A stretch of 63,868 nt of DNA, counting the filler, from Craspedostauros australis (taxonomy: Eukaryota): assembly GCA_030167865.1 (NCBI GenBank). It is 21 parts of 21 records of this genome, joined end to end, with 100 filler letters (N's around TTAATTAATTAA, not from the genome) between each part and the next. Parts side by side here need not be neighbours in the genome. Positions count along the whole stretch, not along the records: positions 54,214 to 59,910 come from JALAGF010002023.1; positions 60,011 to 62,525 come from JALAGF010002024.1; 19 more parts are not named here. One strand, given 5' to 3'. Below are positions 6,243-63,868 of this stretch, in pieces. The position numbers and the translations under genes were made by a program. The notes beneath the pieces were generated by a model. The model ran no database searches, had not been told where the DNA came from, and worked only from the letters and a program-made list of their open reading frames with translations. Within the stretch, counting starts at the first letter, position 1; each line of letters starts with the position of its first letter.

Positions 6243-6418
6243 CTTACTCGCACGGATGATGTGCTTGCTATTCTCCGCTGGTCGAATGTAAATAGAGCGA
6301 TAGCACTGGTATTCAAGCACATGGTGTTTCAGCTGTCGACAGGTGGTGTGGAGATGTTGGTGCACCGGTTCTCTATGAAAGTGTCAACACAGCTGAGTTT
6401 CCTCGAACGATGTGGCGT

Positions 6419-7951
6419 TTACTCCGAAGGACTCTGCGCCGTGCTCGATGATGTCTTGTTCAACCTATGCCCGTTTGGTGTGAAACACTCATAATCTTTA
6501 GAGAAGGATCCGTTTGACGTTCCGTATTGCCCTGTGCCAACCACGGAGAACATGACTTTAATCCTTCGATATGTCTTGCAATCCCCTCCCAGCTTGCCAT
6601 CGCATCCGCTCCTGATGTACCTTCCCAAAGCTTCTCCCATGTCTTCTTTTCTGTCTATGATTTCCTGTATCAGATTTGGGCAATCGCGCGCGTCATCGAT
6701 ACAGAACACAATTCGAACAGGGTCAGGTTTTGCTCGAGATCCATCACTTGCTCTGGGCTCCATCCAGTCATTCATCGCTTTCATGATGACACGGAGGGCC
6801 ATCGGATTTTCTTCGATGGCTTTATCCAAAAGAGCCTTGAGCTTTTCTTCACATTCTTCTGATTGTTGCCGTGAGTTAACATCCGAAGATATGTCCTTGT
6901 CTGCCGTAGTGACGATGCTGATGACGCACCATCGCAAAAATGCATTCGCAGCAAGTTCAGTTGTCCTACCGCTCCCGCTTCCACTTGTGTAGACGAAGAC
7001 TTGGTTGTCGATGTACTCCAAACTCTGTCTGTGGAGGACGACTTCGTGCGACTGCCAACCATCACTTCCATCGTGATGAAACTTCGGATTGCCCATGAAG
7101 AATGACGGACAGCGATAGTCGCGGTCATGCGCGACCGTGTCGACATGTGAAATCTGAAAGGCACTGAGTTCATTCAGGATGAACTTACGGAGCGTCTGTT
7201 CGTCATGCCATGCCATGCGCAGCTCCTTGATATGCCGCCAGACATAGTCCGCGTTGATGTACCATGAGTCGATACATGGCCGTTGGAAGAGTGTCTTGTC
7301 GGCGAGCCATCGTCCGAGTGGATTTGTCTCATCGGAAAGCCATGTACGTGCGAAACTCTGCAATTCGGAGGGTGTGGACAAATCATCCTTTACGAGTTTG
7401 ATGATGTTCTTCCTGGTCGCGATCAGCGGGTCCCAAAGTGCGCCCGTGGGCTCTCCCGACTTCAGCACACTCCGATTGAGCATGTCCTTGACATCTTCAT
7501 TGCTGGTATTGCGTTTCCAGAATTTGTATGCTCTGAAGGTGCTCTCATACTCGCTGATATCCGTTGGAATTGTGGGTGCGGCTTGCGCCTCATCTGTTTC
7601 GTCGTTGGTGTCACGAATCTCCGCATCGTTGTCGGGGTTGCCTTTGGTTCCGTCTCCAGTGGCCAGCAACAGGCAAAAGCCGGAACCATGGAACGTTCGG
7701 CGTTGATGCTGTTGCTGTTGCAGTTGTACTTGGTGTTGATTGAGGAGAATGTGATGGTTCGTTGGCGTTGGTGGTGACAAGGGAGATGGTGCGGAAGACA
7801 TCGGAGCGATGGAGCGGGAGGCGAAGGACGGTAACAGCCACGGGTGTGGGGCAATGAATGCCATCACGGGGCTCATCCTGGTCATCGTTCTCGCACGCAT
7901 CGCCATCGCCATTCCCTTTGCTTTCGGGATGAGAGAAGCGAGATGGCTCAT
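6419..7951 (-). CDS. Hypothetical protein with degenerate P-loop NTPase motifs and a presequence-like N-terminus
   Basis: ~510-aa ORF. VYTSGSGSGRTTEL is Walker A-like, RIVFCIDDA is Walker B-like, and the N-terminus is Arg/Ser-rich and acid-free (QRRTFHGS). Confidence 0.6.
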   Translation of the reverse strand: MSHLASLIPKAKGMAMAMRARTMTRMSPVMAFIAPHPWLLPSFASRSIAPMSSAPSPLSPPTPTNHHILLNQHQVQLQQQQHQRRTFHGSGFCLLLATGDGTKGNPDNDAEIRDTNDETDEAQAAPTIPTDISEYESTFRAYKFWKRNTSNEDVKDMLNRSVLKSGEPTGALWDPLIATRKNIIKLVKDDLSTPSELQSFARTWLSDETNPLGRWLADKTLFQRPCIDSWYINADYVWRHIKELRMAWHDEQTLRKFILNELSAFQISHVDTVAHDRDYRCPSFFMGNPKFHHDGSDGWQSHEVVLHRQSLEYIDNQVFVYTSGSGSGRTTELAANAFLRWCVISIVTTADKDISSDVNSRQQSEECEEKLKALLDKAIEENPMALRVIMKAMNDWMEPRASDGSRAKPDPVRIVFCIDDARDCPNLIQEIIDRKEDMGEALGRYIRSGCDGKLGGDCKTYRRIKVMFSVVGTGQYGTSNGSFSKDYECFTPNGHRLNKTSSSTAQSPSE

Positions 7952-14962: not shown

Positions 14963-15323
14963 GCAGTTCGTGCATGATGTCGTGCAAGGCACACGCGTAT
15001 GCCAGCAGCTGCATGGTTTCGTTGTGGTCGACAAAGATAACGAGCAATGGGAGAAGTCGCCGACATCATTACACACAATTTCTTTCATCTGTGGATGGGA
15101 CGAGACAGTGCCTCTGTCTCATCGTTTGGGGTTTGTGGCAGCGACGCGTCGCTTTGAGCATCGGTATGAACAAGCGTGGCTAGTTGTGGTGCGTGCTGTG
15201 GAAACTGAGGAACATCTCCGAACNNNNNNNNNNNNNNNNNNNNNNNNNNNNNNNNNNNNNNNNNNNNTTAATTAATTAANNNNNNNNNNNNNNNNNNNNN
15301 NNNNNNNNNNNNNNNNNNNNNNN

Positions 15324-16494
15324 ACCTCTTTGACCCCCTTGTGGAGCTTCGGAAGCACGGTAGAATGTAGAATCTTGATGGCGCCAGCAACTTGGACGTG
15401 ATCCTGCTTGTTCCGCCCCTTCATCACCATGTCAATGAATCGNNNNNNNNNNNNNNNNNNNNNNNNNNNNNNNNNNNNNNNNNNNNNNNNNNNNNNNNNN
15501 NNNNNNNNNNNNNNNNNNNNNNNNNNNNNNNNNNNNNNNNNNNNNNNNNNNNNNNNNNNNNNNNNNNNNNNNNNNNNNNNNNNNNNNNNNTGGTCCTTGA
15601 GGCGCTCCTTTTCCTCCTTGATCTTCTGCGCTTGTACCTTTCGTCTCACTTGGTGGGCCATGTACTGGCGCAGCGCGTCATCGCACAGGTTAATTGCTGC
15701 AGCCATGCGATCCAATTCGAACGTGTTGCCAGTGATGTTGCTGGTGGTAGTTCGCATGAAGTCGCGAACGCGAATCGGGAAGAATGTCATGACATCTGCA
15801 CATTGCTTGCATGCTTGGTTCACAAACGGGAGGGAGCCATTTGTCAGAGCGAACTCTGCGGAATGTAGATTATCCATGGTTGACTTCACCTGGATGTGTT
15901 TGTTTGCATATTCCCATTTCGCAAATGAAAGAACAGAATTGCTGTCCGTGATGATGGCCTGTGCCTCATTGAGAAGTTCAGACACGAGCTCTTTGTCTTG
16001 ATGTTCCTTGTTCTGAGTCCAAAGCAGTTCCATGACTCTCCTGATCATGTTTTGGAAGTGCATGAATACAGTCAGAGTATCTGTGTAGAAGGAGGACAGG
16101 CCAGTTTGACACTTGCCACGTCGTGTGAGCAATGTCAGGATACTCATGAAGGCAGGCCTGCCGACAGGGTCATCTGTTGTGTTCTTGTACTTCACAAAGA
16201 GTTCTGCATCAGGTGTTGATCCGCGAATGAAGATAGGCAGGTCTGGGAACAGAACACCAGCCAACTTCACGCTCCTTGTGATGCCTGGCCGGTACTGGGA
16301 CATGGAGGTGAGAAACGAGATCACGCCCTGGAGACTAGATTCCTTGACACGGTACTTGTAGTCTGCGTGTGGGAACTGGCCTCCGGCAAGGATCGCACCA
16401 CCAGCGTGCGACAGTCTCCTGTGTGCTGCACGAGACATGGTTCGGCGTCCCAGTGCGACCTTCGCCTTGTCTCCTTTCGACAAGCTACCGTAGT
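15324..16494 (-). mobile_element. DNA transposase fragment, Sola3-like (central region)
   Basis: Frame is open across the scaffold. YMAHQVRRKVQ and NKQDHVQVAGAI resemble segments preceding the catalytic Asp residues of this family as I recall it; the key residues fall in the N-gap. Confidence 0.5.
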
Positions 16495-17237
16495 NNNNNN
16501 NNNNNNNNNNNNNNNNNNNNNNNNNNNNNNNNNNNNNNTTAATTAATTAANNNNNNNNNNNNNNNNNNNNNNNNNNNNNNNNNNNNNNNNNNNNCAGTCA
16601 CAACGGCGGTCATTGGACACTAATAGACGATCTCGTTAAATATGATACTTAACGACACGACATGTACTGGTCATTTTCTGCAAATGCAACGACACAGATT
16701 GTGGAGGTAAGACTAATTGGATTAAACAGCCTCGATTCATCTCTCTGGTCAAATGAGTCAAAAAACGCACGTTTCAATGGACTTGCCGGGTGTCCCTGCG
16801 ATCCGAAAATGGAGAAGCTGCACGTCATCACGTTCTCCGAATCTTTCTGCTCTTTCTTCGTCTCTCCTTTGTCACGAACACGGACTGAAAAGGTCATCAC
16901 AAAGTCTCTCTCTAGACTGACGCTACGTAGATTGTGTCCGACATCACCGGGTTGTGTTGTGTTGGGGAGGAACAAAACGCCCGCGTTCCACCATCGCACA
17001 CAAGCACACAAAGTGAACCTCCGTGCACGATTCTTACGTGATGTGTTCCAGCAGAGGAGAGAGTTCCATTGACATCAAAATCGCACGATCACGGAGACGG
17101 TGACACCTTGAGGGGCACCAACCGCAACACCCACTCCTGTGACAACACCAGAGGGCATTGGCAAGAAAGAAGCAGGACTTGGAGCAGCCATTCAAACAAC
17201 GATCCGACAATCTGCGGGCAGAGACAGACAGACAGCC

Positions 17238-23377: not shown

Positions 23378-26300
23378 TTACCAACCCATGATCAGCTTTC
23401 GGGCTGCCACGAATTTGGCTCGCGCCAATGGCTTTGTCATGATGTCGGCTTTCTGAAGAGTTGAATCGATGTACTTGATTTCGAAGGATCCTTTCTTGAG
23501 GTGAGATCGAAACCAATGGTATTTGATGGCGATGTGTTTTGATCTTGGTGTCATCCGCGGCGGCTTCGTTGTTGCTAAGGTGATGGCAGCTTGGTTATCC
23601 TCGAAGATGGTGGTCAGTTCTGATTCTGCCGTTGATTTGATGTGGAAGGCGTGCATGAGTTGTTTGAGAGCGTTCTTGAGAGGTATGACTGATCTCATTG
23701 CGGTTGAGAGTGCAATGTACTCTGCTTCTTGTGTTGACATGGCGATTTTGGACTGAATCTTCGATTTCCAAATGATGGGCATGTTACCAAGGGTGATGAT
23801 GAATCCAGTGCGGGATCGGACGGAGTTGGGATCTTGAGGATCTTCCTTTCCCCAAACTCCGGCAAAGTCGGCGTCGACATAGCAGTCCATGGAGCCGATT
23901 GCTGATCGCTTGACTTGGATGCCTTGGTCTTTCGTTCCAAGGAGGTAGCGTCCAATGCGTTTGAGTGCGAGTTCATGAGGATGTTTCGGATCATGGCTGA
24001 ATCGAGCGCACTGATTGATGGCAAATGCGCAGTCTGGTCTTGTGTTCGTGCCAAGATACATCATCATTCCCAATACGGATCTGTAGTTGAATTGATTGGA
24101 AATGGGATCGGCGTCTGGATTCTTACCAAGAGTGGCGTCTGCTGGAATTACGCGGGAGGATTCTTGTTGCAGTCCGAGGGATTCAATGACTTTGGCTGTG
24201 AGGCCAGGCTGAGAAAGTTTGATTTGGTCATCGTTGGATTTCTCAATCTTTATACCGAGGTATGCAGAGAGATCTCCTTTGCATGTGAGGTCAAAACCTT
24301 CTTGATGTAGCTGTTGGATAGTCGATTGAACGATTTCCATCGTTGTGCCACAGAGGATTGCATCATCCACGTAGACGCAAATGATGATGTTGCTCTTGAG
24401 GAACAGACAGGGATCTTGCTCGGCCATTCTGAATCCGAATTTGTCGCTGATGAGGGCGTCGCGAAGATGTTCGTACCACAGGCGTGGTGCTCTTCGGTCG
24501 CCGTAAAGACTCTTGTTGACTTGTAGAATAGGGCGGTCCTTCTCTGGAATGTTTGGGTTGTTGATAGGAATTGGTCCAGGAGGAGGAAGCATGTAGATTG
24601 GAGCAGGCAGATGAGATTGAACAAATGCATTTTTGAAGTCAATTGATTGAGTGTGCAGTCCATGTTCGATCATCAGTGCGAATATCAGACGGATGGAGCT
24701 CCATTCAACAACGGGAGCTAACGTTTCATTTCTGTCTCGCCCTGTTCGTTGCTGTTGGTCTCCTCGTACGCAGAGACGAGCTTTGAGCTTCATAATGGAT
24801 CCATCNNNNNNNNNNNNNNNNNNNNNNNNNNNNGTTGAAGGGATGATTTCGTGGTTGATTGCCATTGACCGAGGAACCACGCGGAATGTCTTCTTGTCGA
24901 GAAGCTGTTCGATTTCAGTGTTCATTGCTTTTCGCCATGTGGCTCGTTCGTTTAGGTCAGGGCAGTTCAGAACGTCGGCAAGAGATGGATGATCGTCATC
25001 ATGCGCTTTGGCTTGGAGGATGAGAGGGTCCATATCGTAGATTTCGTTGAGAGCTGGACTGGTAGATGCTTCCAGTAGGATCTGGTAGCGGCTTGGGATG
25101 TCGAAGTTGTCGTTGATGTCCCAATTGAGGTTTTGGAAGAAGAGTGGTGATGTCTGTGGTCGAGGTCCGCGCCCGCGGCAGAGAGCATGAATGCTATGAA
25201 AGACGGTGTTGCGAGAGGTTGCTTCGTTCTGACGGTAGCGAGCGGGTCTGCGAATGCGTCGTCCGGATCGAGATCGTCTGACTGGAGAGTTGTCTTCGGC
25301 CGTTGGTGGCTCTGGCTGTGGCATGCCAGTGTTGTTTTCATTGTCAAGGGAAGGATCTGGTAGCGGTATGCCGGCGTTGTTGTCCTCGTCGCCGCTGTCC
25401 ACTTCGGTGCCAGGCGGCAGATCATGGATGCTTGTATCGGGTGATGTGCGAGGGACGAATCCGTCGTCGTCGTCGTTTCTGATGATTGTTACCGGCGGAT
25501 GAATGAGCGGAGGCATGCGTGGTTCGGGGCGATGCTGGCGATTCCATTCTTCTCTTTCTTCGTCGGTCATGAATTCGGGATCTGCGTCAGGCAGAGGTCC
25601 GTCGATGTCTTCATCGTGGTCTTCGGCGTAGTTATCGCTTTCGAAACGGATGATGTCATGCCAGTTGGGGTCGATGTCGTCTTTTCCGTCGTCGGTTGTT
25701 GCGATGGTAGAAAAGCGTTCGTCGAAGGCGCAGTGATATTGACTGCTGATGTGGCCGGTACGAGGATTGAGGATGGATGCGACGGTTGAGGAGAACTCGC
25801 GGTTGAAGCCAAGGAATTGGCCCATACGAGCTCTTGCTTCCCATTTTGGAATCTTGTTCTTGTCTTGGAGATTCTTATGCAGGACGTATGCTGGGCAACC
25901 CCATACGCGCGATCGCTGGAGCATCACACAGCTGTCATCAGATCCCGTGAACTTTGCCATGGGAGAGCTGTTAGAGTTTCGCTGCGGAATGTGGTTGTAT
26001 GTCCAGGTGGCGTAGGTGACTGCGAGCGGCCAAAGTTCGACATCGAATTGATCGGGCCAGTGGAGGCTGACGTGAATGAGCATTGCTCTTGCCCTGTTCA
26101 TGATGACTCGGATAGCGACCTCTGCAGCTCCATTTTGATGGTGCGCTCCTTGTGACGCAAACCGGATGCTCTGATTGGCAGTCAACGATTCGCGGAAGGC
26201 GCGAGAGGAGAGAGAGCCTTGGTCCGTATGGTACATCTTGATGGACACGTTGCTCTGGCTGGCAATGTACTCGAAGTCGTTCTTGGCTTGGATGGTGTCG

Positions 26301-26609
26301 TGTGCGCCGAGAGATACCTGATGGAAGGTATGGATGAACCCGCTGTAGCTGTCGTAGAAGATGGTTCCGCCAACATATTTGCTGGATACGGGTTCACGCC
26401 CTTTGGTGTGTTCGAGGCGTCCTTTCACTGCAACGTGGTAGTGATCCACAGAGACGAGGTGACCTGGTTTGGTTGCGTTTGGAGCAATTGGGCGTTGGTC
26501 TTCGGATGGATGTGAGGTTCTCGTGGGTATTGGTCGACGCTTGGCCGTTGCGATGGCGCAGGCTTGGCAGAGTGGGTTGATGCAGTTGGCAGGTCCCTTT
26601 CCTCGCCCT
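23378..26609 (-). mobile_element. Ty1/copia (CoDi-like) pol: integrase, RT, RNase H; apparently intact, 5'-truncated
   Basis: YHTDQG, HHQNGAAE, KARLCVRGDQQ, YVDD, YVDADFAG, EAEYIALS, EDNQAA and KADIMTK in IN-RT-RH order. Confidence 0.97.
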
Positions 26610-27867
26610 NNNNNNNNNNNNNNNNNNNNNNNNNNNNNNNNNNNNNNNNNNNNTTAATTAATTAANNNNNNNNNNNNNNNNNNNNNNNNNNNNNNNNNNN
26701 NNNNNNNNNTCTCATGACACCATCGTCTCACGATTGGTGTCATCCTTGGTGATGTTCCAAACCTTCGGATGTTCTTGTCCGCAGGAGGGGCGCATGCTGT
26801 CCTCTGAAGGGGGTGCGTCACTTGCCCATCCGCCTGCTGTTCTGATCGACGTCGTTGTCTGCATGGTTGCCTTGGTTGGTTTGGTATTGGGACCTCCTGA
26901 CCCGCCGTAGGTGTCATCTTTACGTTACCAGAGGACAGACTACCCTCCTCGCGGTAGCACAGGTATCAATCACGTCCGTGTCCTTAGTCATAGTCACAAT
27001 GACATGGTATTCAAAGGTGTGATGAATAGTCTCCGAATATGTGACGAATAATATTCAATGTTGTGACAAATAATGTTGGAAGGTGCGGCAATCATGGGTA
27101 TTACGACAAAGTCTTACCCTCGATTCCCAACAGAGGCTTTCAACAACAATCGTACCAGCGCATGGCATCAAGTCATTACATGCATGAAACCCAAAATGAG
27201 TTGTAAAAGTGTAAGAACGCAGATTATGAGTCTTACTGAGTGCAACATGTACGCTCAATTACGCTACTGCTACTTCCTGATTGGTTGACACCTGTGTTCA
27301 CACCGCAACGCCAATTCAACGGTTTCACATGTATCTCTGTTTGGCATATCAGCATCATGCGTATGGTGCAACGATCGTGCTCGCGGCGAAAATCGCACCT
27401 CATCGCAGAGGCGGAGGAGGAGGTGGACCCGATACGGCACACAAATAAGCAAACATCAGAATGCCGTTTTCGTGTGTATGGTAATTTGATGTTCCTACTC
27501 AGACATGTATGATTATATTTTGGTACTGTGGACGCCGCCTGTTGGGGGCTGTGAGAAGTTGGTCAAAATGTGGGAGTGCATCGATTTCTCGTCCTGGGAA
27601 TGTGATTGCCGACGTCCTTTGGGTTGGCACGTTCACTACTTTTGCAGATGCTTGCTGTGCTTTCTCATCATCTGCCTTTGGTGCTGCTTTGCAGGTAATT
27701 GTGCTTTGCATATTTCAGTTGGGCGGAAGGCACCATTTGGAGACGATGATGAGATCATCATCCGTCGTTGGCTCAAGCCCTTCAAGACTTGGGTTTGGCG
27801 TGGAGCTGATCCGGTCAGAGAAGTGGGTCGTTCCCTTGGTGCCGCTGCCGCTGAGCAGACAAGCCGC

Positions 27868-32207: not shown

Positions 32208-32870
32208 CATCGGGCACGATTTCAAATGCGTTGCGAGGATCGGTTTAGCGTAATCATGACTGGTGATCAATTATCTTCTGACTGTGTGGAAGTCCACTCG
32301 GGAATGGAGTAGTAGTAGAATACAGTACAATGTTGGCAAGGGATGAGACATCACAAAGGATGACTCCAGCCTCGAAACATCGTTTCTCCGCCCTCCGCAG
32401 TGTGCCTTGCTTGCAAACGCGTACAAAGGGCACAGCGCACTCGTTCGTCCATGAGAGCCACCACGAAGTCATGAAGATGCTGGGATAATAACAATATACA
32501 GCGACGAAGAATATAATCTGACGTTTTGTTCCGTTGAATTCTGTCTTTGCCGGCATCTTGGACACGACGAAGCACACTTGACAGCGGCGTCGTGGGAGAA
32601 TAGTACGCGTTTGTTGCGTTCTCTGCTGTCTTGCGCCCCTGGGTAGCGCATCATGAGAGCAGCTCCCCAACGGCAAAAGGAGACAACAACTGGTCTACCA
32701 GGAGTCACGCAGAGTTCGCGGAGAAATGCCGATTCCACCTTACCAAGTTGCAGTTTGCTTACACACTATTTCTACTGTTGCAACGGTTACTTTTTGACAT
32801 TGTTGGTTTTCGCCTCATTTTGATATTTGAAGAGGAACAAAGAGCTCACAAATTCGCAAGAAGTCAAATC

Positions 32871-33468
32871 ATGTTACTCCCACGCGGAACTTTCGCTGTT
32901 TTGGGGTTCGGACTGATTGGGTCTCGCCCAAGGGGCATGCTTGCGAACGATCTTTCCGTGGAATCGTTGCGACAGTTCGCGTCTGTGTTCGGAACGCATC
33001 CTGACATCGTGCACATCTTGTGGAACGAGCTCGTAGGCGCTCGAGCTCTCCCGCGCGGGGCCAAACCCAAACATCTCCTTTGGACGTGCGCGTTTCTTCG
33101 TCTGTACGTGTCTGAGACTGCGCTCGCTGCAGTGTGCAAGTGTTCCGCGAAGACACTTCGCAAGTGGATGTGGCTGATGATGGCAGCCGTTGAAACCGTT
33201 AAGGACCGCATTGTAAGTACTAATAAATTCGCACACCCGAACTACGACACTAAATTATTTTCACTCCATTCACTCACACATGTTCTTTTTCCTGGTACCG
33301 CTCCAATTGACAGATCGTCTGGAACCGTCGTTTCGTTGGCGCAAGTCACAACGCAAAAGCTCTTGTCACTGTTGACGGGACCGACATGCGAATCACCGAA
33401 CCGAAACCGTTTGACAAGAAGTGGTACTCGTTCAAATTTCGCGCTGCCGGTTTGCGTTACGAGTTGGC
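32871..33468 (+). mobile_element. PIF/Harbinger transposase, N-terminal part; intron 33213-33313
   Basis: PKHLLWTCAFLRLY...KTLRKW HTH region; the spliced exon gives VTVDGTDMRITEP...KWYSFKF...GLRYE. Confidence 0.88.
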
Positions 33469-40044: not shown

Positions 40045-40144
40045 NNNNNNNNNNNNNNNNNNNNNNNNNNNNNNNNNNNNNNNNNNNNTTAATTAATTAA
40101 NNNNNNNNNNNNNNNNNNNNNNNNNNNNNNNNNNNNNNNNNNNN

Positions 40145-42115
40145 GCGCTTGTCGCCCACCTTTGTTGCCTTGATGTAGCGACCGCTGCCGATCTTGATGG
40201 AGTGGTCGGCTACGCGCACGTTGGTCATTCCCTCGTCGTTGTTGGTTAGGTGGCACGAGGCACCTGAGTCGCCCAACCAAGTGTTTGCCTCATGGCGGTC
40301 TGGGGCGAGCGTGATGCGGNNNNNNNNNNNNNNNNNNNNNNNNNNNNNNNNNNNNNNNNNNNNNNNNNNNNNNNNNNNNNNNNNNNNNNNNNNNNNNNNN
40401 NNNNNNNNNNNNNNNNNNNNNNNNNNNNNNNNNNNNNNNNNNNNNNNNNNNNNNNNNNNNNNNNNNNNNNNNNNNNNNNNNNNNNNNNNNNNNNNNNNNN
40501 NNNNNNNNNNNAACTGCTCCTTCTCCAGCCTTTCGTTGATAAACGGCATGTTCTTCATGACGTTGAACGGAGTCATCATCCCGATTTCGCGTAGGAGGAA
40601 GTAGAGGGTGCGGGCGTCCGCGCAGTTGCGTCTGTCTCTCGAGTTGTACTCCTCCACTGTGTCGAAGCACAGCAAGGCAAGCTCGGAGCGCACACTGTCA
40701 GCCGGCATGGCGTTGCTCAATGAGTATCGCACTGCGAGTGCGAGGGACTCCTCCTTTGCGAGCATNNNNNNNNNNNNNNNNNNNNNNNNNNNNNNNNNNN
40801 NNNNNNNNNNNNNNNNNNNNNNNNNNNNNNNNNNNNNNNNNNNNNNNNNNNNNNNNNNNNNNNNNNNNNNNNNNNNNNNNNNNNNNNNNNNNNNNNNNNN
40901 NNNNNATGCCCATCCTTGGTACATTGCGCGCCCTGCTGCTTCGATCGTCTTCTCGATGGGAGACTTGTTGGTGGAGAGCGAGAAGACAGGCTCTCTGCAG
41001 ATGTCTTCTGCTCCGATCACCATCGCCACTTCGTTGGTAGATTCTTCTTCGGTGCTGACGAGGTCTTCATCGTAGATGACCTCGTCAAAGAACTCGTCGT
41101 CTTCGGTGGACTCGTCGTCGGACGGGAAGAGTTCGCGGTTGATGCGCTCGGCGGCGACCGCTGGTGGTCCGTAGTGACCATACACCCCTGGGTGGTGGGC
41201 CGCCCGCTCTTCCGCTGTCCACTCGGAGCCTTGGTTTGGCTCTTCGTTGCCTTGATCGGCCATCTCTTCGTCGGTGGACGCGAGGGCGAGGTCTTCGGTG
41301 GTCTCCTCTTCGGGAGGCATCATGGCGAGGTCGTTGCTCATGTTTTTCTTGATGTTCGCAATTTCTTGGGTTGTTACGAGTCTTGGGTTGGTCACATTTT
41401 TGACCTCTGTCGAATCAAGTTCGAACTCGTTGGTGAGGAAGCACATCATGTCCGTGCTGTCCATGGACTGGTCGTCCTCGGGCAACCAGGAGGGCTCCTC
41501 GATCATGGCTAGAGCAACGTCGTCGGCCTTCTCGTCGGAAGGTAACCACATCTCTTCGTCAACTTCAACGAAGGAGTCGTACCCAGCCACATCGTCTTCG
41601 GTAGTCCGCCACATGTGTTCTTCGACCATCACGAGGGCGACGTCTATCTCTTCCTCCATGCCGTCGGTCGCCACGTTTGCGGCCTCGGCTTCTCGCATCG
41701 CTGCTTTCAACTTGAAGCAGTCGAGGATCTTGTGCCCCTTCTTACCGCAGTACTTGCAGTTTCCGTTGAACTTGTTCTTGGCGGGGGTGTCACCTCTCTT
41801 GTTGTTCTTCTTCAAGGTCTTGTTGTTTTTGTTCCTTGGGGGAGAGCGGCAGTCCGCCTTCTTGTGCCCGTAGGCACCGCAGTTGCGGCAGTACCCTTTG
41901 AAGCCGCCCGTGGCAGCGAGAGCCATTTCCTCTTTGGTGTCGCTCTCACGGCGGTTGCTTCCTTGCTTGATGTGACGTGCGTCGTAGGTGGCACTCACTG
42001 CTTCACGGATGTCCTCGATTGACATCGTGCTTTCAATGCTGGTGAACTTGAGCTCGATGAGCTTCACATCCATCTCGTAGTCCCTTGCGAGGGCGTTGAG
42101 CACGAGCATGTGGTA
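40145..42115 (-). mobile_element. Copia gag-protease fragment
   Basis: Two CCHC knuckles (CRNCGAYGHKKADC, CKYCGKKGHKILDC) and protease motif WLGDSGASCHLT. Confidence 0.88.
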
Positions 42116-42355
42116 NNNNNNNNNNNNNNNNNNNNNNNNNNNNNNNNNNNNNNNNNNNNTTAATTAATTAANNNNNNNNNNNNNNNNNNNNNNNNNNNNN
42201 NNNNNNNNNNNNNNNGGTGCGATTATAATATGAATATGATACGAGAAGGGAGCGACTACGATGCGAGTAGAGCACACCACCAGAGTATATCGGGAGTACA
42301 TTTAGAAGCAGAATGCGATAGTCGAATGGTACATTCCTTGTTTCTGGACATTATT

Positions 42356-43690
42356 CTATTCTGTGGAGGACTCGGCGTTCTTCTCGCCACTTCTCAGAAA
42401 CGATTTGAAGAAGGAGGCTTGGATNGACACNCTCTGCTCCCAATCATANTTCATCACCCTTTCCATCAACCATTCATACAAAGCATACGAGGTGATCCTG
42501 TCAGTTCTGTCTTTGCTTTCTTCGATTGCCTCGCACGCAGCTTTTCGGACCTTTTCAGATAGCTGTGGCGTCTTCTTCTTCTTCTTCGTGGGTGACATCA
42601 TCCTGATTTTTTGTTCGGATGCCCACAATGGTTTGGATTCCGAAGAGGATGACACATTGGGGTGCATCACGGTTGATTTGGCAGGTGGCTTCGATGGCGA
42701 TTTCACAGTTGGCGATGCTGATACAGATGATGCCGCCGATGATGCTGCTGATGATGACGATGAATTTGCAGTTGATTTCGTGGCTGCTGTCTTCGTGGTC
42801 GCTTTCGTACTCGCCTTTTTGGTATACGTGATTGCCCAACCCGATTCGACAAAGTCAGGAGCCTCGACCTTCTGCTCAACTGTGACAGTGTTGGCTTCGT
42901 CGCCAGGGCGTGGCTGTGAGATGAAATCGAAGACCCAATTTGTGACGAGATTGCGAAGAACAGCACTTTTTGGAGTATCAGGCTTGCCGCGAGCGCGTGA
43001 CGTGCGTGTTGTGTATTTTGGCGGAGACTTGGTTTCGCCTGGCGTCTTCACGAAGGCAGGTTCGATCTCTTTGATTTCCTCGCTTTCAAAGTGTATTTGC
43101 AGATCTTGGATGTCGTAGCTGTCAAGCTTTTCTTGATGGATGATTTCTGGCTTGGTGACACCAGAGGATGCTGTAAGTGCAGCACTGTCATCGCGAAAGT
43201 CCACCTGATGCACGCCTCGGCAGGGAATCTCTTCTGTTCGAAATGGCTTGTTTTCGAGTCCATCGGATTGCATGACGGTGGTGCCCTTCAACTTGCCAGC
43301 ATGCGCAAGCACAATGATTGTCCCCTTGATCTTGTGCTTGATGAGGTTGGTGTAGATACCTTTCTCTGTCAACCCCTTTGCGCCCTTTGTGCGGTTGATG
43401 GCTCGTCTTAGAACGTTGCCCACGATACCAAAGTGGCCATCCACTGGACTCTTGCCGGTCTGGGCTTCTGTGAACAGCCACTGCGTGATTTTGGGTAAAT
43501 TTGATGGTGGCGTTGACTCGTGATTCTTGGTGGCTTGTTCCTCACTTTTTCGCTTCGCGAACAAAAACGCGTTAGATTTGATGCGTTTGTGTTCTTCCCT
43601 CTGCGCTATTCTCTTTGCTCGCGCTTTCTGTTCCGGAGTTTTCGCGACAGACTTCCTTCCCACAGGGGCTTCCGGTAAACTGCCGGACAT
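42356..43690 (-). mobile_element. Sola3-like transposase-derived ORF (C-terminal catalytic segment)
   Basis: WLFTEAQTGKSPVDGHFG resembles the E.Q.GK..xD motif of Sola-type DDD transposases as I recall it; basic N-terminus. Confidence 0.5.
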
Positions 43691-43815
43691 GGTGGTTCGG
43701 GTGCATTTTAACGGACTTACGAACACTGTTAGTCGTGAATGAGATTTTATTAGTCTTGATTGCCATGTCCTTCAGACATTGTCGTCGCCACTCGCGACTC
43801 GTATCTGTGCGATGT

Positions 43816-54113: not shown

Positions 54114-54748
54114 NNNNNNNNNNNNNNNNNNNNNNNNNNNNNNNNNNNNNNNNNNNNTTAATTAATTAANNNNNNNNNNNNNNNNNNNNNNNNNNNNNNN
54201 NNNNNNNNNNNNNCATGATGGTGGCAGCCAAATTCCCAAGCAACATCAGCATGAAGAGCAACCGCAAGAAGGGTACCACCGCAAGTATCCGTAGTACTCG
54301 CAGCAACCACACTGGTAGTACCCGCCGCAGCAACCGCAGCAAGAGCAGTCACAGCGCCAACAGCAGCCGCAACAGGAAGAGCAACATGGCATACTACCAC
54401 GATGATGGTACCGATAGTGACAGCAGCATTTTGTCCGAGGTGAGCACCATCGCAGATGTCAATGAGCCAACAACCCCCAGCAATGACACCTTCTTCTCCT
54501 CCAATGAAGACTGATGAGCTCGAATGNCACAACACAGTAGCGAGCGCAGAATCTACAAATTAAGCCTGCGCTCATGACCCGAACGGCTGTCCACCACGAA
54601 ACAACCGTAACAATAATTAGCAGTAACAAATCACACACATTCCACAATCGTCTTGCCTGTGCGCCATTTTTCCGTATGCCCCTGTGACATGAAAAGTGAA
54701 CAACAACCAATTGATTGCATAGTGATGACACAATCCAAAGCAGACAGG

Positions 54749-55143
54749 ATGGTAAAGAAAGGTGCAGAGATCAAATTTGTGAGGGGATCTTACAAGGGGA
54801 AGCAGGGATGGGTTGATGACGAAAAAGCTGAAACAGGCCAAATGGTGTATGTGGTTGTGGACAATGGCGATGCCCCACCCACCAAGACCAGAGTGAAGAA
54901 GAACAGCATTGTAGAGAAGAAGATGGAGATTGCTCCAACCTCATATGCAGATGCAATGCTTCAGCAACATCCAGATATTGATGAACAGATGGACAAGATG
55001 TGTGAGATGTTTGCTCAGTGTGAGGGTTTGATCGCTGTGGTGATGAGGTCCTCAAGATCATCATCGACAAGGTCAAGAAAGCTGATGATACAAAGAAGAC
55101 AGCAGCGCACAAGGCAAGATTCCGCAAGGCCAACTTCAGTTGA
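54749..55143 (+). pseudogene. Small orphan gene with KOW-like N-terminus, frameshift ~55026
   Basis: KGAEIKFVRGSYKGKQGWV...LQQHPDIDEQM; the shifted frame continues DEVLKIIIDKV...KARFRKANFS*. Confidence 0.55.
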
Positions 55144-55263
55144 GACAGCAGGTCTGATTCTAGTGCACAACATTCATACAAAGAAAGAGAATAGCACACG
55201 GTCCGCCCCCTGTGTGGTTCAAGAATGAAGAACGCAGATAAATACCATATCCAAATAGCACGA

Positions 55264-56364
55264 TTACTTGAAAATCGAAGATGTAGCTGCCTTCTTCCTT
55301 CCTGCTTTGATCTTCCTGGTACCATGCTTCTCTGCTATCTTCCAGTACACAATGGTTGCTGTGAGTGGCTGTGATGTTTCATTCTCAGTTGGCTTGTACT
55401 GCATTGGTGCAAGGTGCACCTCCACTTCACTCGAGTCATCAGACAATACCGAATTGTCCAACACAACACCATCAGGGAAGATCAGCAGGTAGTAGTTCCA
55501 GGCGTTTGATTCATCTGCTTCAAGCTCAATATCAGTTGCTGTCATTGTGTTTGCAGTTGCGTTGCAAGATTCACTGGCCAAGAACTTGGCAGTGTCACAC
55601 ATGAAGAAGCTGCGTCTAGGCCCCTTGATCATCACACATCGATCGAGAAACTCTTCTTGATTGTCAGGAATGGATGCTGTCCATTCCTGCCAGTCTGGTG
55701 CCGCCACCTCTTTTCGGATGAGGAAGAGGTTTCGCTGGTGATCTTTGTGGGTTGCACCCTTGACATTGCTTATTTCGAAAGGAATGTTGAACGTGGGACG
55801 AGATGTGTTCACATTGACACGGAATGGGCGCCCCTTGGTCCCAAGTTCTGATGATTCCGTTGGTGCCTCATGTGTCCATTGTGGTGCATATGATGCAACT
55901 GATGGATCTGGTGAGAGGAATGAGTGAGTTGCAATGGTTGCTGATGGGAGAGATCATTGAGGGGTTGCAGGTGGGAGAGAGCGTTGAGGGGTAGCTGGCT
56001 CCTGTTGGTGCGGTCCTTTGGTTGGTGGTGGAGGACCGTCACTGTGGTTGCCTCTCACTTGCATGAAAGCAAACTTGGTGGTGATCTCTGTGCCCAACAT
56101 TGCTTGATCTGCTTCTTGTCTTGTTCTGTTGCCTGGTTGCACTACGAACCCAGCAAGAAGATTGAGGTAGCTCTTTGCAGGTCGGTCGAGGATATGGTTG
56201 AGCTTTCGTTGAAATGCTCTTCGCTGTACAGATCCACTAACTCCAAAGATGCTTGGTTCCCGATCGCATATGGATAAGAAGTTGACCTTCTTGCGGTTGA
56301 GCTCGGTTGCCTCCAGTGCTTGGAGTGGTTGTTTCACTTTGTAGGATCGAAGGGCTGTTGTCAT
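55264..56364 (-). pseudogene. Orphan family gene, paralog 1, single in-frame TGA at 55954-55956
   Basis: The two listed ORFs are in the same frame and align end to end with 57303-58550. Confidence 0.75.
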
Positions 56365-56490
56365 TGTGAGATTGTGACACAAGATGGAGGGAAACCACAC
56401 AACACCAACAGACTTGCAACGCCATTGATGTCCACGATGATCATGGGCAGTCATGTCAAGCAGAGGGATGTTCTCGCTGTGCCAAATGCA

Positions 56491-57273
56491 TGTCGAGATG
56501 TACATGTGAGTATATGTCGAGATGTACATGTATATGTGCATCGTTCACCCGCTATGCTCTCATATGCACTTGAATGGTACAACTGCATTCGTGTCGATAG
56601 TATACTGTAATTCATCAGAATTCCAGCGGAAATGGAATACACGAAAATGAGCAAGATTTCTGGAGGAAATTTGCAATCGACGATTTCTGAGAGAATTAGA
56701 AACATCGTCCGTCCATCCATCCATCAATGGAGACGTATGGTACCAAGCGAATCTCAAGGTACCTCCCAACTAAACCTGAGATGACGATATCATCTGACAG
56801 ACTGCTGCATCACCAATGGAACATGACATCTGGAGAGCAGAAGGACGCCTACTGACGTCGACATCTGTCTCCAGGTCAGAGCAGGAGGCGAAGATCCGAT
56901 GATCGAAGGACATCAAGATCATGGATACGAGAGGTGAAGTTCAAATAGTAAGTACTCATGGAGGAGGAGCCAGTAGTGAACAAACAGAGTATCGAATGCG
57001 GAGTACGCATCGAACGCAAAGTATCGTGTAGCACGAGTACACGATATTGAGAGAAAGAGAGAGAATACGAGTAGCAGCGAGAGAGCATCTCGCATTCCGA
57101 CTCCTAGTTGGAGACTGAATCTACGAGACAAGTCAAACGTGCCGAGAGCATCGGGCAAGAGAGAGGACACCAAGAGGATTGGAGTCTAAACGAAATGAAA
57201 TAGCAAACGAACGACTACCAACCAACACCATCTTCCACGATCGTAGGCATCCGAGATCCGGAACTTGCCAACA
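56491..57273 (+). mobile_element. Solo LTR, family A
   Basis: TGTCGAGATG...GGAACTTGCCAACA; homologous to 29004-29806 and 35110-35553. Confidence 0.78.
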
Positions 57274-57302
57274 TGTGGCCACTCCTTCCTTGTCATGAGT
57301 TC

Positions 57303-58550
57303 CTATGAGCTACCTCCTGCCAAACGGTTCATGTAGAAGCCAGCATTCTTCTTTTCCGCTTGCTTGGTGACACGACCGCCCTTATGCACCAACTTCCAGT
57401 AGATGGCACCACCATGGATTTTAAAATCGTTTGCGCCATCGCTCACGACCGCCTGCTGAACAGTGCAGAGAGTCTCAACTTCGTTGGAACCAGGAGCTGC
57501 AGTGAGAGCAAGATCAAAGGTAACATGAGGAGGGAAGATCACCAACCAGAAGGAGAACTTGCGATCTGGGGAGGACTTCACCTTGGCGATGGTTGAAGAG
57601 AGTGCAGTTGAAGCGGTTCCAGACATCGCATCATGCTCGTAGAAACCCTTGTCCTCGCACAGCCATGCGTTCACGCTGGGACCGCGAATCATCAATGCTC
57701 GATGACCAATACCTGGGATGTGCGTGGGGATTTCGGCGCTCCATGCTTCGATGTCCTGAACAGCAGTGGGGATGCGAACATGGAATCCGGCAAAGTTTCC
57801 GTTCGGGGTTCCCATGTCGTTGACAAAATCAACGAGAAATTCCCGATTGCGTTCTGGCAGGTCTGGGTCCACCGCGACGGTGTACGGATTGGTTGTGGTA
57901 CCGTCCTCCTTGTTCGCGAACACCACCGCGAATTTGTCTTTCTTCTCGTTGGTGGCGAATTCGTCAGAGACGGGCGAATCAGTTGACTCATTGGAGGTGG
58001 TTGCTGTTCGCTCTGGGAGCTCGATCTCCACTTGCGGCTTGGTTGGCGGAGGAGTGCCGAACACACGAAGCGGGCTTTTGAGGCCGTCACCAACTGTGAC
58101 TTTCATGGCGTTTGTTGGTGGTGGTGGTGGTAGTGTTGCTTGCTGTTGGCAGTGGGGAGTGGCATCAAGTTCGTGGAACGGCAAAGAATGTAGTGAGAGG
58201 TCATTGACATGATCGCAGAGGCTTGCAACAGAGGGATTGGCGTTGCGATGATTTATCGCTTCGCCAAGAGTACCTGACCCTGGCTGGATACTGTTTGAAT
58301 GCAAGAATGCCATGTAGCTGGGAATGCTCCTCCTCTTCAGATTCCCAAACGCCCAGCGGCTCTTGTTACGGAGGTCGTCACCAGGGGAGCCAAACACAGA
58401 AGGGTTCTTGTTGCAGACATCATCTGCAAACACGATGTCACTGCGCGCTTTGCCTGTTTGTTCGATGATGGATGCGATCTGTTGTCGCAGGAACTTACAT
58501 TGTTGTCTCTCGTTGAGATGCTGTGGCATGGTGATTCCAGATTGTGACAT
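57303..58550 (-). CDS. Orphan family gene, paralog 2 (intact ORF)
   Basis: Shares C...PS.FG..G...R, SY...L....QPG..T, W.A.IP, MI.GP, IFP and YWK with paralog 1. Confidence 0.75.
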   Translation of the reverse strand: MSQSGITMPQHLNERQQCKFLRQQIASIIEQTGKARSDIVFADDVCNKNPSVFGSPGDDLRNKSRWAFGNLKRRSIPSYMAFLHSNSIQPGSGTLGEAINHRNANPSVASLCDHVNDLSLHSLPFHELDATPHCQQQATLPPPPPTNAMKVTVGDGLKSPLRVFGTPPPTKPQVEIELPERTATTSNESTDSPVSDEFATNEKKDKFAVVFANKEDGTTTNPYTVAVDPDLPERNREFLVDFVNDMGTPNGNFAGFHVRIPTAVQDIEAWSAEIPTHIPGIGHRALMIRGPSVNAWLCEDKGFYEHDAMSGTASTALSSTIAKVKSSPDRKFSFWLVIFPPHVTFDLALTAAPGSNEVETLCTVQQAVVSDGANDFKIHGGAIYWKLVHKGGRVTKQAEKKNAGFYMNRLAGGSS

Positions 58551-59222
58551 GATGGTGCTCGGACTACAATTCTGAACCGAGGGATCACATTGCTGTACTA
58601 CATGCGCACTGATCGCTGTGTACCCCTGTGTCGGTGCCATGACAACACCATACACAACACCATGAACATCACATCCTCCTCGTCTTTCATGAGGAAAATC
58701 GATCTGTTTCTCTTTCGCAGGCTGCATCGAATTCAAACGACCAATGCTGTCATACGAAAGGATGCGCGCCTAGGTTGAAACATGGGTGTCAACAGAACGG
58801 TCCTGTATTGTTTTAAACTATGTAGATAGCAATGGCGGCACAATCAACTATGCGCGGGTCGACAGCTCTAGCTTCCTTTCATATGAAATGGCCGTTATTT
58901 CCCGTTGTTGGCAATAGCGCCAGTCGTGGATGCACCATCTAGACGAGCCGTAATTATCGTAGCGTAGGCTACGAAAAACTCAAACACGACTGAATTACAA
59001 CGGCGCCATCCAGCCACTGTATTGGCTTCTGTAGCTCTGCTCATGTATTGAGCACAAGGCACACCACCCCACCCGCCTAACAGGCGTTTTAAATGACAGT
59101 GCTTATGCAGCTTTTTGTGTGTATTTTACATGCGATGTTGGTTGTCATTGTAGAGTACTGTCTCTCTCGAGGAGGGTTGTCATTGTCATCATAACCCACA
59201 GAACATGCCCACAATTTGAGCT

Positions 59223-59750
59223 ATGGCAGGCAATCCGCCAAATTTCACGTGGCGCAACAGCGCTGCAAGCGCGATGATGAAAAACGATTTCGCCATCGGA
59301 GGGGTTTTCCACGACAACGACGTGTCACCTGGTGAGGCGTGGGCGTATTTCAGCATGTTGGAGCAGTTCAAAGTGTGTGGAATGACGCAGGCCGTCTTCC
59401 AGAAGTACTTCAAGACATTCCGCGCAAGAATCGAGAAACAATGAGAACGCTCGGCACGCGAAGAACGCGCCTTGGACAATGATCGCTCTCTTCATCCCGA
59501 ACAGCGACGCAACATTCAAGGCAGACCAGTGATGCACTTGTCTCCCGCCAAAAGGTTGCTCTCCCATGACATCAAAATGAAGAAGAACCTTCACATGACA
59601 CCATCTGAATTGCAGGCAAGTTGACCAGAGTATGTCTCTTTCGGTGCAACACAGTTCAAGCAGCACGTCTATCAGGAAGAGAAGCTGCAGAAGTTCAAAA
59701 ATCATCTCTCAATGCAGCGAAATAAGGCAGAGCACGTGACCAAAAAGTAA
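59223..59750 (+). pseudogene. Orphan gene with an internally duplicated ~60-aa domain and two in-frame TGA codons (59442, 59622)
   Basis: One frame from ATG to TAA; WRNSAASAMMKNDF... versus MHLSPAKRLLSHDI...S*PEY...FKQHVYQE. Confidence 0.6.
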
Positions 59751-60189
59751 GAAGCATCGAGTAGTAGATACTAGTAGTTGCATATTTGTTAGACTTGGTC
59801 TAGTGTAATTTTAGACGAACATGTCGCACGATTTGCCCACGAATGGAAATTGTGCTGTGTTTATGGAGTCGGGACTGTGTTGCTGCTGTTGGTTGTTGTT
59901 GTGCGTTTGGNNNNNNNNNNNNNNNNNNNNNNNNNNNNNNNNNNNNNNNNNNNNTTAATTAATTAANNNNNNNNNNNNNNNNNNNNNNNNNNNNNNNNNN
60001 NNNNNNNNNNCAAACCGAATCATCTTGAGATACGATCGACCAAGAGGTGCAGACAGCAGAAGAGAGAGAGATAGCTCAAGTAATCATAATTTTTTTTTGG
60101 AATTACATCATCAACAACAACCTCAATCGTATCAAGTACAAAATCAATCGTAGAAAAAAATACAACTTCAATCGTACGCCGGCATAAGG

Positions 60190-61685: not shown

Positions 61686-62525
61686 TCACTCGCTGCTGTT
61701 GCCAGTGTGTAGGTAGGTCTTCTCGTGCTCGCGCTGTAGCTCTGACTTGATGTTCTTCGTGAAGCCGTCGCTTCGATTGTTCTCTGACTTGACGAAGATG
61801 ATTTCGATGAGCTTGTCATTCACCATGTTGCGGACGTAATGATGGCGTACGCCGATATGGCGGGAGTGTTGCAATGTTGAGGGATTCTTCGCGATGAAGA
61901 TCGCTCCAACATTGTCGACTCTCACAGTGATTGGAGTCTTCACTGGCACTCCCACACTCTCCAAGAGTTGCATCACAAAGAAGATCTCCTTCGCCGCTTC
62001 GGATAGCGCGATGTACTCTGCCTCTGATGAACTGAGGGTCACTGCCTTCTGTGCCTTGGATCGCCAGAGGATAGGGACTTGACAGAGGTAGAGAATGAAT
62101 TCGCCGACACTGATGTGAGTGTCTTTGTCTCCGGCGTATTCGCTGTCGCAGAACATCTCCATGTTCCATGTGCTGCTGTCTGTCATGACGGGATGGATCC
62201 TCAGACCGTAGTGCTTCGTGTCGATGACGTATTTGATGATACGCCGCATCTCCTTGGTTGCAGCCTTGGTCGGTCCATCCAGTACCTTCGTCAGCTCTCT
62301 GACAGGGTTGGCGATGTCAGGACGCGAATGCTTGATCAGGAATAGAAGCATTCCCACTCCCTTGCGATAGTCAGCATGCTCTGCTGCATCCACCTTCTGC
62401 AATCCGTTCTCTTCGGATGGGCGAACGATGCTCTGGCTTGACGTCCCTGGCGTCGCGTAGCGCTGCATCTTCTCCACCTCTGCACCAAACTCGGTGATCA
62501 GGTTTCGGATCAGATGTGGCTGGCG
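61686..62525 (-). mobile_element. Copia RT C-terminus and RNase H
   Basis: SRPDIANPVREL, FCDSEYAGD, LSSSEAEYIALSE, VDNVGAI, SDGFTKN. Confidence 0.95.
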
Positions 62526-63436
62526 NNNNNNNNNNNNNNNNNNNNNNNNNNNNNNNNNNNNNNNNNNNNTTAATTAATTAANNNNNNNNNNNNNNNNNNN
62601 NNNNNNNNNNNNNNNNNNNNNNNNNGAGGTGCAAAAGTCAATGAACAAAACACCGCGATAGCCCGTGTTGTAAATTACGTCTTCTCACGATGTTGCTAGT
62701 AGTACGATCGCACGATTGATCGTATTCACTTGAGAAGGTCAGGGCAAGATTCGCACGTGTCACACCCAAGATCCAAGTCTGTCCTGATTGGGCAGATTGG
62801 CTCATCTTGGCAAGAAATCNNNNNNNNNNNNNNNNNNNNNNNNNNNNNNNNNNNNNNNNNNNNNNNNNNNNNNNNNNNNNNNNNNNNNNNNNNNNNNNNN
62901 NNNNNNNNNNNNNNNNNNNNNTTCGGAACGGAAAAGGTAAGAAAAGTGGAGATTTCTGATTGGTCGACGGGTGTCGCTATTGTTAGAGATTTAGCGTGCG
63001 CTAATAATTGGGATTGACGATGCCCAATGCACCATCGGGAACTTTGGAGCCTGTTGCTAGGAAGCAGCCAGCAGCATTCAAGAATGCAGCAATCAAGCCT
63101 GTGGCTGTTGCTTGTGGCGCCCCTCCGGATTCGAACCGCAGAGCAGATACAATCATGGGCGACCCAGGGCAGCATCTCAAGCGTTCTCCTCCCATGACGG
63201 GTGCCCATAATAGTCCAAAGAAGATGAAGTCTCAAGAGATTGTCGAGGACGGCAAGCCTGCAGCAATCGACTTCGCAGTCAACACGACTCTTCCCAGCAG
63301 TGACGGCAACAGTGACAGTGAGACTGAGGATTTTGATGATGAACTCGCAGACTTCTTTTCTCATGCCTAAACAACCAATTAGTAACATGAAGTATTTGGA
63401 ACAGTTATCAACTACAGTTCTCTACCTGCATTACCA

Positions 63437-63868
63437 TTAGATATCGAATATCGGGTGCCCATTGTCGAGCTCATACTGAATCAGAACACAGCATGTCTCA
63501 AATAAGCACTGATGCTTGTGCAGTTGGTTCCGGTAGCCGCCCGCGAGTGCCCTGAAATTCTTTATCCTCCCGTTGAAGCTCTCATGCCGTGCTCTTGCTC
63601 TGTTCTTGAACTTCCTCACAGCAGCAGAATCGCACGGATTTGGGGCACTGATTGTGGGCTCGTTGTTGTACCCCCCATCTGCAATCACCAGGGCATTTGG
63701 TGGGATCTTGGATTTGAGACCGCCTGGCTTGCGATACATCACAAGATCTGAAGTTGAAGCCGGAAATGGACCATTGATCCACACCAGCTTGCTCTCTGTG
63801 AGTGATATCCCAAGCTCATATGTCAGTCCGGCCGAGTGCGACTTGTGGGAGTACCACTTTGCTCCTGG
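63437..63868 (-). mobile_element. PIF/Harbinger transposase, C-terminal part
   Basis: KWYSHK...GLTYELG...WINGPFPA...IADGGY...RARARHESFNGRIKNF (DDE_Tnp_4-type D and E). Confidence 0.92.

What the first reader, a model, noticed from the sequence alone, without database searches (positions are those of the whole stretch)
54214..59910. Compact, decaying cluster of orphan genes: candidate accessory module of a multi-gene DNA transposon
Seen: one scaffold holds five tightly packed genes with no housekeeping motifs, namely an S/R-rich C-terminus, a KOW-like gene, two paralogs and a duplicated-domain gene. Three are broken by TGA codons or a frameshift, much of the region is CpG-poor, and a solo LTR has inserted, so it is decaying like TE DNA. 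Inference: I recall such families as multicopy diatom hypotheticals near PIF/Harbinger transposases. Canonical Harbingers have only a transposase plus a Myb/SANT ORF, so a 3-5-gene cargo would be an unusual element type. No transposase is on this scaffold.
Basis: partly seen in the sequence, partly recalled or inferred. Interest (0 to 1): 0.72.

Follow-up and report, generated by a model that had tools for sequence, protein, structure and literature searches.

The report
Multi-gene diatom transposon with crystallin-fold protein
These orphan genes are the interior of a diatom cut-and-paste transposon family that, unlike its usual two-gene relatives, keeps three or four extra genes, one of them predicted to fold like a small heat-shock protein, which hints at a way for transposons to organise or protect their own DNA.

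Summary
The genes are real, and the transposon idea holds. In this diatom genome the genes recur in a fixed order beside a DDE_Tnp_4 transposase (T): TIR, T(-), B(+), D(-), E(+), F(-), TIR. The ends read GGACACCCGGCAAA (108 hits against 1 control). The target duplication is CWG, not TWA, shown by an empty site. B, D, E and F show dN/dS of about 0.1-0.35 between lineages. E lies next to D and/or T in 19 of 30 metagenome loci. D (717 clusters, no Pfam) models as a helical domain, a disordered linker and an HSP20/alpha-crystallin-like sandwich (best Z 7.7, moderate). E models as two three-helix bundles, probably standing in for the Myb partner. Verdict: a new variant of the PHIS superfamily, with a NuwaI-type target but four to five genes and a diatom host. 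Functions of the extra genes are inferred. Repbase was not searchable.

The parts
54214..54681 (+). Right end of a separate young element X (end of gene A plus terminus); X has its own transposase start of the same clade on contig C5043
   Evidence: 98-100% matches on six other contigs with a sharp end and different flanks; transposase start matches the T profile at E 4.5e-5
54215..54514 (+). Gene A, S/R-rich C-terminus of X's accessory protein; not homologous to D or E
54682..54684 (+). CTG target triplet at X's insertion site, about 40 bp upstream of B, on the side where relatives carry the transposase
54725..55143 (+). Gene B: KOW/SH3-like N-terminus plus helical part; frameshift near 55025; CpG-depleted; closest to the C733 lineage (59%)
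55264..56364 (-). Gene C: D-family gene of a second lineage (closest to C5596, 48% in the N-domain); internal TGA at 55954-55956; CpG-depleted
56491..57273 (.). LTR-like repeat (TG...CA, 783 bp, multicopy) without target duplication; junction between the two lineages
57303..58529 (-). Gene D, intact: helical N-domain (residues 7-97), disordered linker, HSP20/alpha-crystallin-like beta-sandwich (about residues 205-395)
59223..59750 (+). Gene E: two three-helix bundles (homeodomain/Myb/FF-like architecture); internal TGAs at 59442 and 59622
59861..59910 (-). 3' end of gene F (hydrophobic C-terminal half); the rest of F and the right TIR lie on overlapping contig C4329, TIR 2,256 bp beyond the contig end

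Best explanation
The stretch is the interior of a family of cut-and-paste DNA transposons of the PHIS superfamily (PIF/Harbinger-ISL2EU-Spy) in a diatom. Shown: the family plan TIR-T(-)-B(+)-D(-)-E(+)-F(-)-TIR, about 7 kb; a DDE transposase T; TIRs beginning GGACACCCGGCAAA; duplication of a CWG target; selection on the extra genes; a conserved core of T, D and E with variable further cargo. Inferred: T cuts at the TIRs and pastes at CWG. E, with two three-helix bundles, is the DNA-binding partner in place of the Myb/SANT protein and binds the subterminal repeats (about 0.65). D binds DNA by its helical domain and multimerises by its crystallin-like domain, so gathering protein on the element's own DNA (fold about 0.75; this role about 0.45), either to build the transpososome or to counter host silencing. 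B and F are lineage-restricted helpers. This contig is a dead composite: B and C come from one lineage, D, E and F from another, meeting at the LTR-like repeat (about 0.7), and a younger element X sits where T would be.
For: Order T-B-D-E on 5 of 40 contigs mapped, three lineages; T beside B on 9 of 12 B contigs against 100 DDE_Tnp_4 matches in 65.9 Mb. TIR pattern 108 hits vs 1 control. 58 of 58 distinct ends preceded by CNG, 50 by CWG. Empty site in gene E with CTG on both sides of the insertion. dN/dS 0.07-0.35 in 17 of 20 pairs, 2 saturated at synonymous sites. E beside T in 13 and beside D in 9 of 30 metagenome loci; one complete 7.05-kb element with perfect 30-bp inverted repeats (L207). 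DDE residues align. D C-domain: 717 clusters; model mostly above pLDDT 90 in both domains; the first 36 rows are all HSP20-like folds (small heat-shock, CS and related domains). Composite: different nearest lineages and CpG content on the two sides of the repeat.
Against: No fully intact autonomous copy with both TIRs and all five genes lies on one contig; the plan is pieced from overlapping contigs of a fragmented assembly. Target triplets match as direct repeats in only 5 of 7 two-ended elements (chance about 0.08), and L207 has CAG/CTG. One pair of near-identical E copies gave dN/dS 0.86. D's best Z is 7.7, under the tool's level of 8, with no Foldseek hit at E<=0.001 and no Pfam HSP20 hit. 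E's fold matches are weak (Z up to 5.6) and FF domains score as well as DNA-binding folds. Only 3 of 12 copies of the LTR-like repeat have a target duplication, so its absence here is weak evidence for recombination. No function was measured.
Confidence: 0.85

Rival explanations
1. The extra genes are passively captured host fragments (Pack-type cargo) with no role in the element's life.
For: Cargo beyond T, D and E varies between elements: other ORFs in L200, L207, C863 and an OTU-like protease ORF in L211. Many copies are broken.
Against: Order and orientation are kept between lineages whose D proteins are only 25-67% identical; purifying selection on B, D, E, F; the D-E-T link recurs in metagenome contigs.
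Confidence: 0.07
2. D's sandwich works as a CS-type or chaperone module that folds or stabilises the transposase (for example by recruiting Hsp90), with no role in chromatin or silencing.
For: CS domains (Sgt1, p23, NudC, Shq1) score Z 5.3-6.9 with lower rmsd (2.2-4.1 A) than the small heat-shock hits.
Against: The top two rows are small heat-shock proteins with longer alignments (116 residues); D is joined to a helical domain whose rows include winged-helix DNA-binding proteins (Z 4.5-4.9), which points to DNA.
Confidence: 0.3
3. The contig is one element with a genuine tandem duplication of D (C plus D) and a simple solo-LTR insertion.
For: C and D are homologous and co-oriented on one contig; most copies of the repeat lack a target duplication anyway.
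Against: None of the other 39 contigs mapped shows two different D-family genes (the repeated pieces in C5161 lie at scaffold gaps). B and C are nearest to the C733/C5596 lineage, D and E to the C5646/C2315 lineage; CpG content changes at the repeat.
Confidence: 0.15
4. The junction at the repeat is an assembly misjoin and not a real recombination.
For: Fragmented assembly (6,734 contigs); the repeat is 783 bp and very abundant.
Against: The best full-length other copy found is only 87% identical, so a collapse needs an unseen near-identical pair.
Confidence: 0.2

Closest known systems
NuwaI group of PHIS (Han et al. 2015, PMC4482050; parts 1-3 of 4 of the text read, supplements searched)
   Same: CWG target duplication, G-rich TIR start, DDE transposase plus accessory protein.
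   Different: NuwaI has two ORFs (DDE and Myb/SANT), averages 4.5 kb and was found only in animals. Here four to five ORFs, about 7 kb, no Pfam Myb/SANT, diatom host. Both Thalassiosira genomes and Phaeodactylum occur in that paper's supplement only in the list of screened genomes.
Canonical PIF/Harbinger
   Same: DDE_Tnp_4 transposase, TIRs, 3-bp duplication, non-autonomous short derivatives.
   Different: TWA target and two ORFs. In this genome a HARBI1-like transposase clade is separate from the T clade (SH-aLRT 100).
HarbingerS (SET domain, Phytophthora) and PHISTA (TET/JBP plus third protein, rust fungi) (Kojima 2025, PMC12730594; passages and one supplement part read)
   Same: PHIS elements carrying a third gene thought to act on epigenetic marks.
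   Different: No SET or TET domain here; PHISTA duplicates TA; cargo here is a crystallin-fold protein, a double three-helix protein, a KOW-like protein and a hydrophobic protein.
Arabidopsis HDP1/HDP2-IDM2/IDM3-MBD7 complex (PMC5339849, passages read) and ACD15/ACD21-MBD5/6 (PMC10651127, abstract read)
   Same: Harbinger-derived transposase and DNA-binding protein work with alpha-crystallin-domain proteins against silencing; ACD proteins drive multimerisation on methylated chromatin.
   Different: There the ACD proteins are host genes and the Harbinger parts are domesticated. Here the crystallin-fold domain is on the mobile element and fused to a helical domain. This is an analogy: no sequence homology was shown.

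Membership tests
PHIS superfamily | DDE_Tnp_4-type DDE transposase | tested here: met
   PF13359 E 2.8e-12 and 2.6e-12 in linked copies; D, D, E align. Absent from this contig itself.
PHIS superfamily | Terminal inverted repeats | tested here: met
   108 vs 1 control; both ends on C1754 and seven other contigs
PIF/Harbinger (strict) | TWA target duplication | tested here: not met
   0 of 58 ends; all CNG; empty site CTG
PIF/Harbinger (strict) | Second ORF with Myb/SANT domain | tested here: inconclusive
   No Pfam Myb hit; E models as three-helix bundles with weak Myb/homeodomain/FF matches
NuwaI | CWG target duplication | tested here: met
   50 of 58 ends CWG; 5 of 7 two-ended elements match; one empty site
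NuwaI | Two ORFs: DDE plus Myb/SANT | tested here: not met
   Four to five conserved ORFs
NuwaI | TIR usually starts GGG | tested here: inconclusive
   GGA after the CWG triplet; element X has GGG
NuwaI | Transposase falls in the Nuwa clade | not testable with these tools
   No Nuwa reference proteins were available to the tree tools
HarbingerS / PHISTA | SET or TET/JBP cargo gene | tested here: not met
   No such Pfam hit in B, D, E, F or other cargo ORFs scanned
Small heat-shock / alpha-crystallin-domain proteins | HSP20-like beta-sandwich fold | tested here: met
   Predicted model: first 36 rows HSP20-like, best Z 7.7 (rmsd 9.2, 116 aligned), Z 6.9 (rmsd 2.4, 80 aligned); moderate strength
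Small heat-shock / alpha-crystallin-domain proteins | HSP20 sequence signature | tested here: not met
   No Pfam or PDB sequence match
Small heat-shock / alpha-crystallin-domain proteins | Oligomer formation and chaperone activity | not testable with these tools
   Needs purified protein

The most novel reading that the evidence does not exclude
A large, undescribed PHIS lineage of diatoms encodes its own DNA-targeted alpha-crystallin-fold protein (D) that multimerises on the element to resist CpG-methylation silencing: a mobile, self-contained counterpart of the plant Harbinger-derived HDP1/HDP2-IDM2/3 anti-silencing complex, and a new class of transposon anti-silencing factor.
Probability: 0.25. 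Interest if true: 0.85.

Novelty: new variant of a known kind. Interest (0 to 1): 0.63.

Why it matters
It assigns several large families of diatom hypothetical proteins (717 clusters for D alone) to one transposon lineage, which improves annotation. It extends CWG-targeting PHIS elements beyond animals. It also offers a testable lead on why Harbinger-type proteins and alpha-crystallin domains meet on chromatin in plants: here a crystallin-fold protein is carried by the transposon itself and kept under selection. Near-identical copies at different sites (99.9% over 3,920 bp) and short derivatives suggest recent activity, so a native diatom transposition tool is possible.

Tried and rejected
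Word-index homolog searches found nothing for D and E and one protein for B; the full profile search showed this was a sensitivity limit. ESM Atlas gave only leads under 0.9. PDB sequence searches for E and D gave nothing useful; Foldseek gave no match at E<=0.001 for E or D in PDB or for D in viral models. No E relative was confirmed in viral contigs and no close D relative in prokaryote genomes (single-protein query, low reach). Complex prediction for two copies of D's C-domain gave no verdict and did not use the alignment. No sequencing run was listed, so expression and the junction were not tested. Rejected: A as a D or E homolog; X as a hAT element (its ends fit CWG plus GGG and a T-clade transposase start lies upstream); the transposase fragment at 63437-63868 as this element's own (other scaffold, other subclade). 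The first tree held three out-of-frame rows and was redone. In one search I dropped five spurious B hits on X-end contigs and one spurious D hit on C5882, caused by non-coding ends of the queries. Five look-ups of earlier findings returned nothing. Literature searches listed no description of this lineage or of a transposon-borne crystallin domain, judged from titles and abstract starts; Repbase and subscription journals were not searched, and the PHIS tree file in the Kojima supplement was cut in view.
Full report
Setting. The window is a string of short scaffolds joined by N spacers. The finding is exactly contig C2023 of the own genome. A silicon transporter at the start of the window (PF03842, E 9e-157) fits a diatom host; that silicon transporters mark diatoms is recalled knowledge.

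Observation. The five coding pieces, three broken genes and the repeat are present as described, with no Pfam hit. E's two internal stops sit where homologs have CGA or CGG, as expected from decay of methylated CpG. CpG depletion is confined to B (0.28) and C (0.46); D, E and the repeat are at host-gene level.

Copies and gene order. E matched 25 contigs (30 matches), D's C-domain 13 contigs (16 matches) and B 12 contigs (13 matches). On 40 contigs mapped, five carry T(-), B(+), D(-), E(+) in that order: C2533, C3738, C4759 (one lineage, nearly identical), C6074 and C5161. Partial arrays agree. T lies beside B on 9 of the 12 B contigs; two others end shortly upstream of B and the third is ours. 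Two more T-B contigs appeared. The genome has 100 DDE_Tnp_4 matches in 65.9 Mb, so this linkage is far above chance. A further gene F lies between E and the right end on 8 contigs. More distant elements (C863, C6630, C3155) keep E, D and T but not B or F.

Ends and target. Copies end in a shared terminus. The pattern GGACACYCRGCAAA occurs 108 times against 1 control. All 58 distinct ends in the loci I held are preceded by CNG: CAG 30, CTG 20, CGG 5, CCG 3; the pattern did not include these bases. Of seven two-ended elements with both flanks, five have the same triplet on both sides and two do not; alone that is weak (p about 0.08). The direct test is an empty site: an intact E gene on C6074, and the two junctions of an insertion at the same place on C6001 and C264, each carrying CTG; that these two junctions belong to one insertion is inferred from the shared site. 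A 1-bp duplication inside C|W|G with one more G in the TIR describes the same sequences. Contig C4329 overlaps ours by 421 identical bases and reaches the TIR 2,256 bp further on; contiguity is likely, not proven.

Selection and spread. Of 20 gene pairs, 17 gave dN/dS 0.07-0.35, two were saturated at synonymous sites and one near-identical pair gave 0.86. T is on 13 of them, D on 9, either on 19, though most are under 3 kb. L207 is a whole 7.05-kb element with 30-bp perfect inverted repeats holding E, a D-like gene, a 648-aa ORF and T; its terminal triplets are CAG and CTG, so no direct duplication is seen there, and its D-like gene matches only weakly. D's C-domain profile hits 717 clusters at 50% identity; those looked up are unnamed or hypothetical.

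Proteins. T has aligned D, D and E residues and forms a clade apart from the HARBI1-like transposases of the same genome. E models at pLDDT 82 as two three-helix bundles joined by a long helix; matches are weak and include FF domains, homeodomains and Myb domains (Z up to 5.6). D models with two confident domains and a disordered linker. The first 36 rows of the wide search are all HSP20-like folds (small heat-shock proteins, CS domains and relatives), led by Hsp16.0 (Z 7.7, rmsd 9.2, 116 aligned) and entry 1gme, a eukaryotic small heat-shock protein (Z 7.4); unrelated folds start at Z 5.0. This is consistent but moderate: under Z 8, no Foldseek or Pfam support. The N-domain drew a few winged-helix rows at Z 4.5-4.9 and was barely tested. 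B has a weak KOW signal. F has a hydrophobic C-terminal half.

This contig. Bases 54214-54681 are the end of another element, X: six other contigs match at 98-100%, five of them stop at the same place with different flanks, and X has its own transposase start. It occupies the position of T. B is nearest to C733 (59%) and C to C5596 (48%); these two belong together through C6181. D and E are nearest to the C5646/C2315/C6218 lineage (55-71%). With the CpG step at the repeat, the simplest reading is two related elements joined at the repeat, by recombination or misassembly. The missing target duplication adds little, since only 3 of 12 copies have one.

Mechanism. Shown: structure, ends, target, selection. 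Inferred: cut-and-paste by T; E as the DNA-binding partner of subterminal repeats (40-bp repeats seen); D as a DNA-anchored multimerising protein, by analogy to plant ACD proteins that act with Harbinger-derived HDP1/HDP2 against silencing (PMC5339849, passages) or drive multimerisation on methylated DNA (PMC10651127, abstract). A chaperone role for D is the main rival.

Comparison. It works like a PHIS element with a NuwaI-type CWG target, but fails NuwaI's two-ORF definition and animal range (PMC4482050) and fails the TWA test of strict PIF/Harbinger. Three-gene PHIS elements are known (HarbingerS, PHISTA; PMC12730594), so extra cargo is not new in kind; this cargo set and host appear undescribed in the papers I could search. 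Repbase could hold diatom members and was not available. Verdict: new variant of a known kind, interest 0.63.

Noticed in passing
window 63437-63868 (-), also 32604-33460 (+): Fragments of transposases of the same T clade on other scaffolds; the first is 85% identical to C601.
   Followed up: partly
window 16783-16796 (-): Another TIR of the same family (CAG followed by the GGACAC end).
   Followed up: no
L211:3162-4094 (-); L203:5132-5656 (+): OTU-like protease ORF between E and T in a metagenome element (PF02338, E 5e-5); a similar-looking ORF in L203 was not scanned. Possible deubiquitinase cargo.
   Followed up: partly
window 56491-57273 and copies L006, L007, L110: The LTR-like repeat shows 6-bp target duplications where it has any (3 of 12 copies), and some copies lie in tandem.
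   Followed up: partly
L160 (G000:C5047) 3652-6456 (-); window 42356-43771 (-) and 15272-16546 (-): A 934-aa ORF without Pfam match, with conserved acidic motifs suggestive of a transposase, inside a 7.5-kb stretch bounded by this family's TIRs; similar-looking ORFs occur twice in the window.
   Followed up: partly
L116 (C863), L117 (C6630): Distant E-D-T elements with very long, imperfect terminal inverted repeats (about 900 bp) starting with tandem G-rich units.
   Followed up: partly
L105 (C6368) 1305-2843 (+): Full-length gene A of element X: short helical N-terminus, long linker and beta-rich C-domain with no database match; may be an analogue of D.
   Followed up: partly
window 35-1402 (+): Silicon transporter gene (PF03842).
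   Followed up: yes
window 23378-26653 (-), 40097-42163 (-), 61686-62526 (-): Copia-type retrotransposon coding fragments, judged by eye from motifs.
   Followed up: no
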